This document shows positions 3,578 to 34,170 of a DNA stretch of 64,000 nucleotides, in pieces (position 1 is the first letter of the stretch; each line of letters starts with the position of its first letter). The position numbers were made by a program, and so were the translations under genes. The stretch spans positions 12,785-76,784 of IMG/VR virus record IMGVR_UViG_3300016467_000502. One strand, written 5' to 3'. This DNA is from a virus. Taxonomy: Duplodnaviria > Heunggongvirae > Uroviricota > Caudoviricetes. The notes beneath the pieces are model-generated. The model saw nothing but the letters and a program-made list of their open reading frames with translations, did not search any database and was not told the DNA's origin.

Positions 3578-3776
3578 ACGGGTATATTTTTACATGCAAG
3601 AAATACAAACCAAAGAATGCAGCCGACACAGCATAGAACACGATATCCGTGATCCAGTATGAACCTGTCCACTCCATCACTAGGGCGAAAAGCGCATCGA
3701 AACCAAAAGGGTTGAAGAACATCGCCAGCATTAGCAGGATGTTCCTGGTATGGGTCTTTTTGTGTACTCGTATCAT
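3558..3776 (-). CDS. small membrane protein (2 predicted TM helices)
   Basis: 72 aa with hydrophobic stretches ILLMLAMFFNPFGF and IVFYAVSAAFFGLYFL. Preferred over the overlapping ORF 3574..3786. Confidence 0.4.
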   Translation of the reverse strand: MIRVHKKTHTRNILLMLAMFFNPFGFDALFALVMEWTGSYWITDIVFYAVSAAFFGLYFLHVKIYPYDKLQN

Positions 3777-7088: not shown

Positions 7089-7246
7089 AGGACGTTAGTG
7101 TTGTATCGCTACACCCAGGACTTGCACCTGGATAACACCCGTTGTCACAAATGTTGCCAGTATTTGTGACGAGCTGCCCACCCGACAGCAGATGTGGTTA
7201 ACTTAAAGCTTCGCCCAGTGCGCGATACTGAGGTTTTTCATATTTG

Positions 7247-30965: not shown

Positions 30966-31433
30966 ATGAACACCACGCTGAAGCGCGCCCTCTATCTAGA
31001 TGATGTGCGCACCCCAACCGTTACCCTGGAAGGCTTTGCGCCATTTACAGTGGTAAGAAACTATGACGAGTTTGTCGGGCACATCCAATCCTTTGGAGTG
31101 CCTGACCTTATATCTTTTGACCACGACCTGGCTGATGAGCACATGAATGATTACTGGGAGAACCAGTACAAGGGGAACCCCGTGGTTGAATATGACAAGT
31201 TTACTGAAAAGACAGGCCTTGATTGCATCAAGTGGCTGTGTAACTACATCCTTGATGAGTATGAAAAAGGTAATACTATTCCTATGCCTACTGTGTGTGT
31301 GCATAGCCATAACCCTGTGGGTGGTGCGAACATACATAACTATGCAAATAGTTTCTGCGCATCCATGGGCTGGCCTGATATTGCTTCTTTTGTGAGAATA
31401 CCGTTTGAAATTCAAACCAAGATAGAACCATGA
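30966..31433 (+). CDS. hypothetical protein
   Basis: 155 aa ORF. Confidence 0.5.
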   Translation: MNTTLKRALYLDDVRTPTVTLEGFAPFTVVRNYDEFVGHIQSFGVPDLISFDHDLADEHMNDYWENQYKGNPVVEYDKFTEKTGLDCIKWLCNYILDEYEKGNTIPMPTVCVHSHNPVGGANIHNYANSFCASMGWPDIASFVRIPFEIQTKIEP

Positions 31434-32413: not shown

Positions 32414-32485
32414 GCGTCCATAGTGCAACGGTAGCATGACGGTCTCCAAAACCGTTGGTCCTGGTTCGAATCCAGGTGGGCGTGC
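32414..32485 (+). tRNA. tRNA-Trp (anticodon CCA)
   Basis: Acceptor gcgtcca/tgggcgt, D stem gtgc/gcat, anticodon arm acggt-ctCCAaa-accgt, T arm cctgg-ttcgaat-ccagg. Confidence 0.75.
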
Positions 32486-33355
32486 AACAACGTTCTTTGA
32501 CATATACTCTTTCATGTACAATAGTACCAAACAAACCTCCGCGTGTGCTGACACAGAGATCAGATGTGAGGGAGCGGTTCCCACAGTTCAATGTACTCTT
32601 TATCCAGTAAGCGCTATATCCGCTGAACCATCATTGAGTGCCTTCCCAGCCGCAGGGTAGAACAAGCAGGAGATTGATCAGGGAAATGTAACATGAAAGA
32701 TGAGATTAAGGAGTGAGTTAAAAGACCAACAAGAGGAAAATGATCACCCAGATGGTACCGAGTAGGTGTATCTGTAGTACTCTTAACGCGATTGAAGCAA
32801 CACCTCCTCAGGTTTATACATGGTTGACAACAATAGTCCGAGCTATCTTCAAGCGGGTGTGATTAACCCGTGGCTCCGCGTGAATACTAAATCATAGAGA
32901 TCACAGACTAGAACAAGGCGCACCGCTTGAAGAGCGGTTTAATACAACTAAACAAACGCCAAGTTCCGTTGTCATCCATGTACAGGCTACGCAGTACAGA
33001 TAGCAGGCCGGGTAGCTCCCGGTCGCCCCAGTTGAACAAAAGTCCAGGTAAGATGCGCATAATCCTGGTGCGCTATAGTACTGGGTTCTGTACTGCATCC
33101 ACACAGTCAGGCTGCGAGTAATCAGCAGTAAGGAGGCAAGATAATGAGCATATAAAAGGATTGCCTAAGGTATAAGCGGTTGCGCGGAAGCATAAGTTTC
33201 ACCGTTATAGCCTTTCCCGTGAGTGCTCTGCGTAGGGTTGCGCCCTACCCTGACTGCTAAGTGTTGTTCCCTTGAGAAAGGAATAGATAAAGGAGGATAA
33301 GCTGCTTTCAAAAGCATTGTATCTCACAACACAGAGGACTTCTCATCCTCAACAT

Positions 33356-33437
33356 AGTCAGGTGACTGAATTGGTTAAGGTTGCCTCCCGCTGATGACGG
33401 GATAGAGTATATACAGGTTCGAATCCTGTCCTGACTA
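33356..33437 (+). tRNA. tRNA-like unit A (Ile-like anticodon arm GAT; noncanonical 3-nt insertion before anticodon stem and 10-nt variable region)
   Basis: Acceptor agtcagg/cctgact, D act-gaattggttaa-ggt, anticodon arm tcccg-ctGATga-cggga, T arm acagg-ttcgaat-cctgt; 82 nt. Confidence 0.45.
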
Positions 33438-33491
33438 CCGTAGGTTTATTTGAGAGTAAAGACCTATTCAAAAATCTTAATAACTCTTGTT

Positions 33492-33564
33492 AGTCAGGTG
33501 GCGGAATTGGCAGACGCACTGGGAATAAAATCCTTGGGTACAGGTTCGAATCCTGTCCTGACTA
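33492..33564 (+). tRNA. tRNA-like unit B (Leu-type D arm, anticodon TAA position but A33 and 3-bp anticodon stem, no long variable arm; likely degenerate)
   Basis: Same acceptor and T arm as unit A; D arm gcg-gaattggcaga-cgc; loop aaTAAaa. Confidence 0.35.
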
Positions 33565-33685
33565 CAACAGCTCTTAACGTAAGAGAACGAAACATAGATT
33601 TGGCATCCCATAAGAACTGCTCGCTCAAAATCTCTAAATCGTTAGTTAGCAATGTTTGTGACTCATTAATGTAAAAGTCACACAT

Positions 33686-33793
33686 AGTCAGAGAAGCATG
33701 ATTAGGTTATATGCCCCACCTGGGTTGAAGGCTGGTAACTTCATTAAACAGATGCCGCATGGGAGATAGCAGGTTCGAATCCTGTCCTGACTA
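33686..33793 (+). ncRNA. tRNA-like unit C (108 nt; extra hairpin and an 8-nt anticodon-like loop gctGGTaa; not a canonical tRNA)
   Basis: Acceptor agtcaga/cctgact (6 of 7 bp), D-like gcat-gattaggttat-atgc, stem tgaag/cttca, identical 3' half. Confidence 0.3.
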
Positions 33794-33875
33794 CAAACTT
33801 ATGTTTGCATACAGAGTAATCTGTCGTCAAAGTCCTGAGCATATTGACGTTAAAGACTTTAAACTGCTTAAACAT

Positions 33876-33957
33876 AGTCAGGTGGCGGAATGGCAGACGC
33901 TGATGTAGATGAAGCATGGTAAGTTCATCCTTACAGGTTCGAATCCTGTCCTGACTA
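33876..33957 (+). tRNA. tRNA-like unit D (Leu-type D arm; anticodon loop agatgaa lacks U33; noncanonical)
   Basis: Acceptor agtcagg/cctgact, D arm gcg-gaatggcaga-cgc, class II length of 82 nt, identical 3' half. Confidence 0.35.
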
Positions 33958-34085
33958 CGAATGTGGTTCAACTCCACTCGTTGACTGAGGTTATGGTAAG
34001 TAGGTGTGCCAAGGTTCGAGCCCTTGGGTCTGGTGACAGATGATGGTAGACACGAACAGTCTGACTGCAGGGAAAGACCTGTCAG

Positions 34086-34168
34086 GCCCAAGTGGTGGAA
34101 TTGGTAGACACACACGTCTCAGAAGCGTGTATCCAAAAGATGTGCAGGTTCGAGTCCTGTCCTGGGCA
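34086..34168 (+). tRNA. tRNA-Leu (anticodon CAG), class II
   Basis: Acceptor gcccaag/cctgggc, D arm gtg-gaattggtaga-cac, anticodon arm cacgt-ctCAGaa-gcgtg, 14-nt variable arm, T arm gcagg-ttcgagt-cctgt. Confidence 0.8.
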
Positions 34169-34170
34169 CT

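What the first reader, a model, noticed from the sequence alone, without database searches (positions are those of the whole stretch)
33356..34170. Array of four tRNA-like units with identical 23-nt 3' halves but noncanonical anticodon domains, next to canonical tRNA-Leu
Units at 33356, 33492, 33686 and 33876 all begin with (A)CATAGTCAGG and end with the identical ACAGGTTCGAATCCTGTCCTGACTAC. Each therefore has a perfect acceptor stem (agtcagg/cctgact) and a canonical T arm. Their middles diverge. A is 82 nt, has a GAT anticodon loop, a 3-nt insertion and a 10-nt variable region. B is 73 nt, has a Leu-type D arm and TAA at anticodon position, but A33 and a 3-bp stem. C is 108 nt, with an extra hairpin and an 8-nt loop gctGGTaa. 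D is 82 nt, has a Leu-type D arm and a loop lacking U33. A further T-arm-like hairpin (gtggttcaactccac) and ccaaggttcgagcccttgg lie at 33960-34030 with no matching acceptor. By contrast Trp(CCA), Leu(CAG), Tyr and Met in the same window fold perfectly. The array could be recently duplicated tRNAs under relaxed or new selection. It could hold expanded-loop suppressor-like tRNAs, or decoys and replacements aimed at host anticodon-nuclease defences. It could also be a new tRNA-like ncRNA family.
Basis: seen in the sequence. Interest (0 to 1): 0.7.

Follow-up and report, generated by a model that had tools for sequence, protein, structure and literature searches.

The report
Anticodon-less tRNA-Leu scaffold RNAs in phages
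The four tRNA look-alikes belong to a large phage RNA family, not found in the literature I searched, that keeps the upper half of a leucine tRNA and replaces the codon-reading part with a different insert in almost every copy, so they are very unlikely to read codons.

Summary
Four units (33356-33437, 33492-33564, 33686-33793, 33876-33957) share AGTCAG(G/A) at the 5' end and the same 25-nt T-arm/acceptor end.

They are not a local oddity or a recent duplication. The same chassis occurs 621 times in 326 fetched phage and metagenome loci, with up to 11 copies per locus.

- **Conserved:** positions 1-25 and 48-73, including U8, A14, A15, G18G19, U48, the T loop and A73.
- **Hypervariable:** positions 26-47, the anticodon and variable arms. 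There are 532 unique units in 375 insert clusters, with total lengths of 54-281 nt.
- **Acceptor helix:** it shows 46 compensated double changes.
- **Flanks:** they match those of genuine tRNAs in the same arrays.
- **ARAGORN:** it calls few units, and with implausible anticodons.
- **Modularity:** units and spacers recur as separate modules in otherwise unrelated phages, with junctions inside the chassis.
- **Absences:** no cultured phage and no bacterial genome other than MAG contigs carries the chassis. No partner protein and no separate Rfam family was found.

Best reading: these are non-decoding, tRNA-Leu-derived RNAs made and processed like tRNAs. They keep the parts that E. coli LeuRS needs. 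What the insert does is unknown; it could be cargo, a decoy or irrelevant.

The parts
33356..33437 (+). Unit A (82 nt). It has the chassis plus a 5-bp stem and 7-nt loop CUGAUGA, 3 extra nt after the D stem and a 10-nt unpaired variable region. It is followed by C74.
   Evidence: (Rfam tRNA 42.3 bits). No homologue of its middle was found in 2.4 Mb of loci or in IMG/VR.
33492..33564 (+). Unit B (73 nt). It has the chassis with a Leu-type D arm. The middle is CUGGGAAUAAAAUCCUUGGG, with no proper anticodon stem.
   Evidence: (44.7 bits, mismatched stem).
33686..33793 (+). Unit C (108 nt), a divergent member. It starts AGTCAGA and has G8, A48 and a D-like arm GCAUG/UAUGC. The middle contains a hairpin UGAAG-GCUGGUAA-CUUCA.
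   Evidence: It is not called by ARAGORN and has no Rfam match even at E<=10. No exact relative of its hairpin was found in IMG/VR.
33876..33957 (+). Unit D (82 nt). It has the chassis, a single-stranded UGAUGUA and then a hairpin GAUGAA-GCAUGGUAAG-UUCAUC.
   Evidence: (37.3 bits). It is 97.7% identical over 88 nt to L272 4549-4636. The same hairpin-loop motif with different stems occurs in L010 and L042.
33105..33256 (+). A 152-nt element closed by the same AGTCAGG/CCTGACT helix. It has G73 and a 6-bp, 5-nt-loop hairpin instead of a T arm. It is a possible distant relative.
   Evidence: the MFE keeps the closing helix; z = -1.85. No homologue was found.
33259..33355 (+). Conserved structured leader. 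A GUGUUGU/ACAACAC helix encloses the UUCCCUUGAGAAAGGAA motif and a variable hairpin. Hairpin GAGGA-CUUCUCA-UCCUC follows, then AACAU and unit A.
   Evidence: (11 loci besides the window; 96% identical in L053).
33439..33491 (+). Spacer between A and B.
   Evidence: It is 98% identical in L203, L248 and L272, where it lies between units with different middles.
33566..33685 (+). Spacer between B and C, ending in hairpin GUGACU...AGUCAC and then ACAU.
   Evidence: The part at 33601-33646 is 78-83% identical in L018, L089 and L061, and 33581-33665 matches L115 at 75%.
33959..34085 (+). Structured spacer after D. It holds two T-arm-like hairpins (33964-33978, 34010-34026) and a CAGG-GAAAGA-CCUG hairpin (34068-34081) 4 nt before tRNA-Leu.
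   Evidence: The 33931-34005 segment, which includes D's conserved 3' end, is 90.7% identical in L243. By eye, the L243 element continues with covarying hairpins.
34086..34168 (+). Canonical tRNA-Leu(CAG), with a D arm and T arm close to the chassis.
   Evidence: (49.9 bits).
32414..32485 (+). Canonical tRNA-Trp(CCA) at the start of the 1.7-kb region that contains no convincing ORF.
   Evidence: (64.7 bits).

Best explanation
**What it is.** The four units are members of a large phage-borne family of tRNA-Leu-derived RNAs that do not decode.

**How it most likely works.**
1. Each unit is transcribed on the + strand together with the phage tRNA array.
2. It is cut out like a tRNA: RNase P at the 5' end, then 3' trimming and CCA addition.
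3. It folds into the upper half and core of a tRNA: the acceptor helix, T arm, D arm, U8-A14, A15-U48 and the G18G19/T-loop elbow.
4. A type-specific insert sits where the anticodon and variable arms would be.

**Consequences.**
- The chassis carries the elements that E. coli LeuRS needs, so the RNAs may be chargeable with leucine.
- With no anticodon arm they cannot act as adaptors.
- The chassis therefore works as a processing and stability handle and as a tRNA mimic. The insert is either a displayed cargo or a bait, or it is free to vary.
- Units and spacers are exchanged between unrelated phages by recombination inside the identical chassis halves.

**Shown versus inferred.**
- Shown: family membership, the conservation pattern, helix covariation, tRNA-like flanks, modular exchange, and the lack of a normal anticodon arm.
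- Inferred: transcription, processing, folding, charging, and any role of the insert.
For: **Spread.**
- Pooled, there are 621 units in 326 loci.

**Conservation.** It is sharp at positions 1-25 and 48-73: U8 135/143, A14 120, A15 122 and U48 118. It falls to background at 26-47.

**Acceptor helix** in the acceptor-unbiased sample:
- 80 of 90 units have 7/7 pairs.
- There are 46 compensated double changes and 19 different fully paired stems.
- G.U outnumbers A.C 16 to 4, which points to sense-strand RNA.

**Same flanks as true tRNAs of the same loci.** Both have T at -1 and C(A/T)A after position 73. The same stem-GAAAGA-stem hairpin precedes both units and tRNA-Leu.

**Not decoders.**
- 32 of 148 are called, with a scatter of anticodons, against 227 normal tRNAs nearby.
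- Median length is 100 nt, and only 36% fall within 70-95 nt.
- Rfam scores are 31-50 bits against 48-73 for canonical tRNAs.

**LeuRS elements.** A73, A15-U48, G18G19, A20a and the D/T-loop pairs are needed. The anticodon and variable arms are dispensable, and truncated tRNA-Leu is still charged (PMC9976931).

**Units are discrete conserved genes.**
- In 12 of 15 homologous pairs, 83-94% identity stops at the unit ends.
- L037 versus L120: the flank is 90.9% identical, the middle is 51/51 identical, and the only two changes are compensatory.
- D is 97.7% identical in L272, inside a 23-tRNA array.

**Other points.**
- Middles are slightly more structured than controls: mean z -0.55 against -0.14, p = 2e-4.
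- Engineered tRNA scaffolds with this architecture are an established tool (title and hits for PMC3753655; how they behave is from my memory).
Against: - There is no expression, end-mapping or charging data.
- The thermodynamic signal of the middles is weak, and unit C has z = -0.06.
- Most inserts are singletons (287 of 375 clusters). That fits neutral drift as well as it fits diverse cargo.
- Spacers are shared between phages about as often as middles (52-53% against 47%). Conservation of the middle could therefore partly reflect recent transfer.
- In L066 versus L074 the middle (92%) is barely more conserved than the flank (89%).
- No partner protein was found.
- LeuRS rules come from E. 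coli and Aquifex, not from the unknown host.
- A1-U72 and the dominance of one acceptor sequence are unexplained.
- Unit A has a regular anticodon stem-loop and could still decode.
Confidence: 0.6

Rival explanations
1. **Decoys or titrants for tRNA-targeting host defences or toxins.** This is a functional sub-case of the main reading. The chassis is bound as a class II tRNA. The hypervariable region is the part such nucleases cut, and the arrays give high dosage.
For: - Variability is confined to positions 26-47, the anticodon and variable arms.
- Arrays reach 11 copies per locus.
- Units sit inside phage tRNA arrays.
- Septu and retron-Eco7 cleave the variable loop of the class II tRNA-Tyr.
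- Over-expressed phage tRNA partly protects host tRNA.
- SegB-type homing endonucleases reshape phage tRNA regions (PMC13096335).
- A homing-endonuclease ORF cluster is among the commonest neighbours: 12 of 138 loci, phrog_314.
Against: - No defence that targets tRNA-Leu is known to me.
- Nothing here shows binding or cleavage.
- Many inserts are longer than any tRNA arm, and some are strictly conserved. A pure bait does not need either feature.
Confidence: 0.22
2. **Processing punctuation (t-element-like).** Only the chassis matters. It recruits RNase P and the 3' processing enzymes to cut long transcripts and release neighbouring mRNAs or the structured spacers. The middle is free to drift.
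For: - In L145, units lie singly between ORFs.
- Spacers are conserved at 98% between unrelated phages.
- Spacers end in hairpins 3-5 nt before the next unit.
- Middles are mostly singletons.
Against: - RNase P and 3' processing do not need A15-U48 or a Leu-type D loop, yet these are conserved.
- Tandem arrays with short spacers and no ORFs are hard to explain this way.
- Inserts are longer, not shorter, than tRNA arms.
- The middle is 51/51 identical where the flank is 91% identical.
Confidence: 0.15
3. **Decaying tRNA-Leu pseudogenes with no function.** Their ends stay alike through gene conversion or recombination with functional tRNAs.
For: - Some members still look like degraded class II tRNA-Leu.
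- A truncated copy exists at L145 7694-7775.
- Middle diversity is high.
Against: - Canonical tRNA-Leu genes of the same loci have different acceptor and T stems, so they cannot be conversion donors.
- Changes in the acceptor are compensatory.
- Tertiary-pair nucleotides are kept.
- The same chassis is kept in hundreds of otherwise unrelated contigs.
- Phage genomes rarely keep kilobases of junk. This last point is inference.
Confidence: 0.1
4. **Unusual but functional decoding tRNAs.** Examples would be unit A reading Ile codons, or expanded-loop suppressors.
For: - Unit A has a perfect 5-bp stem and the loop CUGAUGA with U33.
- A, B and D pass the Rfam tRNA threshold.
- The 90-nt type (L066, L074, L105) has a UUAAG loop and a class II variable arm.
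Against: - B, C and D lack a regular anticodon stem-loop.
- A has G37, 3 extra nt at position 26 and a Leu-type identity set, so it would be mischarged.
- Anticodon calls across the family are a scatter, with many A34.
- Lengths reach 281 nt.
Confidence: 0.05

Closest known systems
Phage-encoded class II tRNA-Leu
   Same: - Same D arm (GGCGGAAUUGGUAGACGC).
- Same type of T arm, A73 and A15-U48.
- Same flanking context and the same place in tRNA arrays.
   Different: - There is no regular anticodon arm or variable arm.
- The acceptor is A1-U72 AGUCAGG, not G1-C72.
- The chassis is nearly invariant between phages, while true tRNA-Leu genes vary.
Minimalist tRNA-Leu substrates of E. coli LeuRS (Larkin et al. 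2002, as reviewed in PMC9976931)
   Same: The acceptor with A73, the D arm and the T arm with their tertiary pairs are kept, while the anticodon and variable arms are removed. Such RNAs are still leucylated.
   Different: Those are laboratory constructs. Here the arms are replaced by inserts rather than deleted, and charging has not been tested.
Engineered tRNA scaffolds for recombinant RNA (Ponchon and Dardel; PMC3753655)
   Same: A foreign RNA is inserted in place of the anticodon stem of a tRNA. From my memory of that work, the chimera is then processed and protected like a tRNA. The paper itself was only identified, not read.
   Different: Those are artificial and use tRNA-Lys or tRNA-Met. 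The family here is natural, Leu-type and phage-borne.
tRNA-like processing signals: plant mitochondrial t-elements, MALAT1 mascRNA, MHV68 tRNA-like/miRNA transcripts (from my own knowledge, not checked here)
   Same: They are non-decoding tRNA mimics recognised by RNase P and RNase Z.
   Different: Those are single conserved elements. They do not form a family with a constant chassis and hundreds of different inserts, and they usually lack a full D-arm identity set.
T4 stable RNAs species 1 and 2 (RNA C and D) in the tRNA cluster (from my own knowledge)
   Same: They are non-tRNA stable RNAs encoded in a phage tRNA cluster and co-processed with the tRNAs. Their function is unknown.
   Different: No sequence relation was tested. 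They are not a multi-copy family built on a Leu chassis.
tmRNA and bacterial Y RNA (YrlA; PMC4201824)
   Same: Both are tRNA-like domains fused to another RNA module.
   Different: - ARAGORN finds no tmRNA.
- Rfam returns only tRNA matches.
- There is an A73/Leu-type D arm rather than Ala identity, and no tag ORF.
- From my own knowledge, the tRNA-like part of YrlA is internal, not formed by the RNA ends.

Membership tests
Canonical tRNA (Rfam RF00005) | Score at or above the curated gathering score (29 bits) | tested here: met
   A scores 42.3, B 44.7 and D 37.3 bits. C has no match even at E<=10. Family members in other loci score 31-50 bits.
Canonical tRNA (Rfam RF00005) | 7-bp acceptor, 5-bp T stem with a T loop, and a D arm with G18G19, U8 and A14 | tested here: met
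   Met for A, B and D. C has G8, a 7-66 mismatch and a D-like arm only.
Canonical tRNA (Rfam RF00005) | 5-bp anticodon stem with a 7-nt loop, U33 and a purine at 37 | tested here: not met
   Met only by A. B has a mismatched stem and A33. C and D have other hairpins in its place. In the family, 116 of 148 units get no call at all.
Canonical tRNA (Rfam RF00005) | A sensible anticodon repertoire and normal length | tested here: not met
   Anticodon calls are a scatter (aga, ata, ctc, agg, acc and others), against the usual set in 227 neighbouring tRNAs. Median length is 100 nt, range 54-281.
Canonical tRNA (Rfam RF00005) | Aminoacylation and use on the ribosome | not testable with these tools
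   This needs tRNA-seq, acid gels or charging assays.
LeuRS substrates (E. coli identity set) | A73, A15-U48, G18G19, A20a and the D/T-loop tertiary pairs. The anticodon and variable arm are not required (PMC9976931). | tested here: met
   By sequence only. A73 is present in 75/90, A15 in 122/143 and U48 in 118/143, with GGUAG in the D loop and an intact T loop. In the window A, B and D meet it. C does not, because it has A48 and G8. Actual charging was not tested.
tmRNA | tRNA-Ala-like domain plus a tag reading frame and pseudoknots | tested here: not met
   ARAGORN reports no tmRNA, and there is no Rfam tmRNA match.
tRNA gene interrupted by a group I intron | An intron of about 200 nt or more in the anticodon loop, flanked by the two halves of an anticodon arm | tested here: not met
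   There is no Rfam intron match. Inserts are mostly 20-100 nt, and no conserved anticodon-arm halves flank them.
t-element / mascRNA-type processing signal | Acceptor and T-arm mimic cut by RNase P and RNase Z | tested here: inconclusive
   The structure and the tRNA-like flanks are present. Cleavage cannot be tested here.
Replicative mobile element (MITE-like) | Copies within a genome share their internal sequence | tested here: not met
   Copies within one locus have unrelated middles.

The most novel reading that the evidence does not exclude
Phages of freshwater bacteria carry a natural cassette system. It consists of one constant, possibly leucine-chargeable, tRNA-Leu chassis into which hundreds of different RNA modules are slotted in place of the anticodon and variable arms. 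The modules are swapped between unrelated phages by recombination inside the identical chassis halves, perhaps helped by the homing endonucleases common in these regions. The products would act as anti-defence tRNA mimics or as scaffolded small RNAs.
Probability: 0.25. Interest if true: 0.85.

Novelty: new variant of a known kind. Interest (0 to 1): 0.72.

Why it matters
- **A new class of phage RNA.** If these RNAs are made and processed as inferred, phages use the tRNA fold as a general-purpose handle for non-coding RNAs. That is a natural counterpart of the engineered tRNA scaffold. It would also add a large and diverse class of phage RNAs to the tRNA and anti-defence picture.
- **A direct experiment.** It would make testable whether LeuRS charges natural RNAs that cannot decode.
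- **Annotation.** Standard tools report these units as tRNA-Ile, Phe, His, Glu(ctc), Ser(aga) and others. That inflates and distorts phage tRNA repertoires and any codon-usage inference drawn from them.
- **Phage mosaicism.** The identical chassis halves mark recombination junctions between otherwise unrelated phages, which bears on how phage mosaicism arises.

Tried and rejected
- **Close relatives among cultured phages.** Megablast and blastn of the region, and a spliced chassis query, found only generic tRNA-Leu and tRNA-Trp matches.
- **Host tRNA origin.** The 24-mer is in only 18 of 32 million genome contigs. All are MAG contigs, about half of them binned as Bacteroidota.
- **Known RNA families.** Only tRNA matched at or above gathering score, and the sub-threshold matches listed at E<=10 look like chance.
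- **A shared motif in the inserts.** k-mer enrichment found nothing universal.
- **Antisense targets.** All reverse-strand hits of the inserts within the fetched loci were simply homologous units on the other strand.
- **A partner protein.** The best ORF cluster is in 15 of 138 loci. The top clusters are DUF932, terminase, homing endonuclease, T5orf172 and a phosphoesterase.
- **Spacers versus middles.** The two are shared between loci about equally often, so this did not separate the hypotheses.
- **Non-templated CCA in assembled contigs.** 88 metagenome contigs carry ...ACTACCA. All matches are internal, so they are templated.
- **Exact relatives of the A and C middles in IMG/VR.** None was found.
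- **Promoter and terminator scan.** It was uninformative.
- **Covariation inside the inserts.** Only 1-2 compensatory pairs were seen per type, because each type has 4-8 members.
Full report
**1. The observation.**

The window carries a 1.7-kb stretch (32486-34085) without convincing ORFs. It lies between tRNA-Trp (32414-32485) and tRNA-Leu(CAG) (34086-34168).

The sequence ACAGGTTCGAATCCTGTCCTGACTAC occurs three times exactly and once with one mismatch, where none is expected by chance. Each copy is matched upstream by AGTCAGG (AGTCAGA in unit C). This gives units of 82, 73, 108 and 82 nt at 33356, 33492, 33686 and 33876.

- ARAGORN calls three of them: Ile-gat, Phe-aaa and His-atg.
- The Rfam tRNA model gives 42, 45 and 37 bits, against 50-66 bits for the four regular tRNAs of the window. 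Unit C has no Rfam match.
- Small corrections: B is not preceded by CAT, and C has a mismatch at pair 7-66 plus G8 and A48.

**2. It is a family, not a local event.**

Almost every hit has AGTCAGGTGGCGGAAT(T)GGTAGACGC 40-250 nt upstream, although that half was not part of the query.

The 5' half is the D arm of class II tRNA-Leu. It is close to the D arm of this window's own tRNA-Leu and, from memory, the same as in E. coli tRNA-Leu.

- Pooled over all fetched loci there are 621 units in 326 loci, with 1 to 11 per locus.
- 532 units are unique, with a median length of 100 nt (range 54-281). Only 36% lie in the 70-95 nt range of real tRNAs.
- 88 further metagenome contigs carry the rare variant with a templated CCA.
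- That variant makes up 4 of 157 units. As a rough inference, the public metagenome set therefore holds units in the low thousands.

The chassis is absent from 50,697 deposited phage genomes. It is also absent from bacterial genomes, apart from 18 MAG contigs. About half of those are binned as Bacteroidota. It is therefore phage-borne and not a copy of a host tRNA.

**3. Anatomy.**

Conservation is sharp.

- Positions 1-25 and 48-73 are conserved. This includes U8 (135/143), A14 (120), A15 (122), G18G19, U48 (118), the T loop and A73.
- Positions 26-47 are at background.
- The missing part is exactly the anticodon arm plus the variable arm.

By insert sequence, the 532 unique units fall into 375 clusters, of which 287 are singletons (earlier sample). 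No motif is common to the inserts. They fold slightly better than shuffles and than nearby control sequence, with mean z of -0.55 against -0.14.

**4. RNA-level selection.**

In the sample not selected on the acceptor, with the 5' strand taken in fixed register, the results are as follows.

- 80 of 90 unique units form 7 of 7 pairs.
- The 36 non-consensus stems carry 46 compensated double changes, 16 single changes that keep pairing and 10 mismatches.
- They include 19 different fully paired stems, for example TGTGTGG/CCACACA, AGTCCTG/CAGGACT and TACCGGG/CCCGGTA.
- These variants also have non-tRNA middles.
- G.U outnumbers A.C by 16 to 4, as expected for an RNA of the + strand.
- D-stem and T-stem variants are also compensated, as seen in examples.
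- Units always lie on the same strand as neighbouring genes.

**5. They look like tRNA genes to the processing machinery.**

- Units have T at -1 and C(A/T)A after A73. The 218 regular tRNAs of the same loci have the same flanks.
- A stem-GAAAGA-stem hairpin 3-5 nt upstream precedes both this window's tRNA-Leu (34068-34081) and units in L142, L009 and L053.
- Units sit inside regular tRNA arrays. 48 of 120 loci hold other tRNAs.
- In L272, two units lie between tRNA-Leu and tRNA-Ser of a 23-tRNA array.
- Relatives of this phage, found through the neighbouring SPFH protein, differ at the same place. Some have 21 regular tRNAs (L140, L141), some have other units (L142, L143, L145) and some have nothing.

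**6. They are not decoders.**

- Only 32 of 148 units are called by ARAGORN. The anticodons it reports are aga, ata, ctc, agg, acc and a few Leu.
- The 227 other tRNAs of the same loci show the normal phage set: cat, taa, ttg, ttc, tct, tgt and others.
- The Leu calls rest on mismatched stems.
- Real tRNA-Leu genes in the same loci have G1-C72 acceptors, clean anticodon arms and variable arms, and they differ from phage to phage.
- In the window only unit A has a regular anticodon stem-loop. It also has G37, three extra nucleotides after the D stem and a Leu-type identity set.

**7. What the chassis retains.**

According to the review PMC9976931, E. coli LeuRS needs A73, the A15-U48 pair, G18G19, A20a and the D/T-loop tertiary pairs. 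[quoted passage not shown]

That list matches what is conserved here. This is a sequence-level match only. Whether the host enzyme charges these RNAs is untested.

**8. Modular evolution.**

- In 12 of 15 pairs of units with related inserts, 83-94% identity begins and ends at the unit borders, and the flanks are unalignable.
- The spacer between A and B is 98% identical in L203, L248 and L272. There it lies between units with other inserts.
- The window and L203 share nothing else of note in 10 kb, only one further 45-nt match.
- The leader before unit A is 96% identical in L053, up to the first 20 nt of the unit. The inserts after that point are unrelated.
- Unit D is 97.7% identical in L272, where it is followed by the A-B spacer.

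Junctions therefore fall inside the identical chassis halves.

Where flanks are alignable, the insert can be more conserved than the flank.
- L037 versus L120: 51/51 in the insert against 90.9% in the flank, and the only two changes in the unit compensate each other.
- L066 versus L105: 38/39 against 89.8%.
- L066 versus L074: only 36/39 against 89.4%.

Middles and spacers are shared between loci about equally often.

**9. Partners and neighbours.**

No protein family accompanies the units. The most frequent ORF cluster is in 15 of 138 loci. The top clusters are DUF932, terminase, a homing endonuclease (phrog_314), T5orf172 and a phosphoesterase. In the window the nearest upstream genes include a cREC_REC domain protein and an SPFH protein.

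**10. Interpretation.**

The evidence supports a non-decoding, tRNA-Leu-derived RNA family that is made and processed like tRNAs.

The purpose is open, and I rank the options as follows.
- (a) A chassis that displays a specific insert, that is, a scaffolded small RNA.
- (b) A tRNA mimic that engages tRNA-binding enzymes, including defence nucleases. Such nucleases cut exactly the anticodon or variable region. Septu and retron-Eco7 do this on tRNA-Tyr (PMC13096335).
- (c) A processing punctuation mark.
- (d) Relics.

Inserts longer than tRNA arms, strict conservation in some types, tandem arrays without ORFs and the retained D-arm identity set argue for (a) or (b) over (c) and (d). The singleton-rich diversity and the weak folding signal keep (c) and (d) alive.

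**11. Novelty.**

Five full-text literature searches found no description of such a family. Rfam files its members only under tRNA. The closest things known are listed under Closest known systems. None combines a constant natural chassis with hundreds of inserts.

Noticed in passing
window 33259-33355; also L010, L015, L024, L029, L041, L053, L056, L069, L095, L118: A conserved structured leader: (U)GUGUUGUUCCCUUGAGAAAGGAA, a variable hairpin, ACAACACAGAGG-UUCUCA-CCUC, then AAC(AU). The helix GUGUUGU/ACAACAC and a covarying 3' hairpin are visible. It sits in front of a unit or a regular tRNA (L069). It has no Rfam match.
   Followed up: partly
window 34068-34081; L142 about 3742-3757; L053 about 661-676; L009: A small hairpin with a variable 4-5 bp stem and the constant loop GAAAGA. 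It lies 3-5 nt before the 5' end of tRNA-Leu and of several units. It may be a processing or 3'-end-protecting element for the upstream RNA.
   Followed up: no
window 33959-34085; L243 860-740 (minus strand): The 127-nt spacer after unit D contains two T-arm-like hairpins without acceptor stems. It recurs in L243 with covarying hairpins, again between a unit and a regular tRNA.
   Followed up: partly
window 32486-33104: About 620 nt after tRNA-Trp with no convincing ORF, no Rfam match and no homologue in 2.4 Mb of related loci. It contains perfect 10-11 nt inverted repeats (32991-33000/33087-33096 and 32846-32856/32923-32933).
   Followed up: partly
window 30966-31433: The gene about 2 kb upstream of the first unit encodes a cREC_REC domain protein (cyclic-phosphate processing receiver domain, PF20274, E = 3.5e-18). 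From my own knowledge this domain is linked to RNA-repair systems. No RNA ligase or RtcB was found among the neighbouring ORFs scanned.
   Followed up: partly
loci L001-L138 (for example L002 398-1198, L091 3697-4266): A homing-endonuclease ORF cluster (phrog_314, 12 loci) and a T5orf172-domain cluster (9 loci) are among the commonest neighbours of the units, about 2 kb away on the same strand. SegB-type endonucleases are reported to associate with and reshape phage tRNA regions (PMC13096335).
   Followed up: partly
L037 5696-5797, L120, L009 1327, L116, L119, L142 3926-4039, L140 about 1-106: One insert type (102-106 nt units) carries AUCACCUCCCC or GCACCUUCC. From memory this resembles the anti-Shine-Dalgarno end of 16S rRNA. 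The type occurs with three different D-arm versions and is also present in close relatives of this phage.
   Followed up: no
L140, L141, L272 versus the window: Relatives of this phage carry 21-23 regular tRNAs at the position where the window has only Trp, Leu and the tRNA-like units. The locus is very plastic.
   Followed up: partly
window 33356-33958 and family-wide: Standard tools label these units as tRNA-Ile, Phe, His, Glu(ctc), Ser(aga), Tyr(ata), Pro(agg) and others. This is a source of wrong phage tRNA inventories.
   Followed up: yes
window 7106-7229, minus strand: Directly downstream of tRNA-Tyr there is a stretch with a T-arm-like hairpin (CCAGG-UGCAAGU-CCUGG) and a 5-bp closing helix (AUCGC/GCGAU). 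It is not called as a tRNA.
   Followed up: no
L145 7694-7775: A truncated unit with an intact 5' half but no 5' strand of the T stem. This shows that copies can decay.
   Followed up: no
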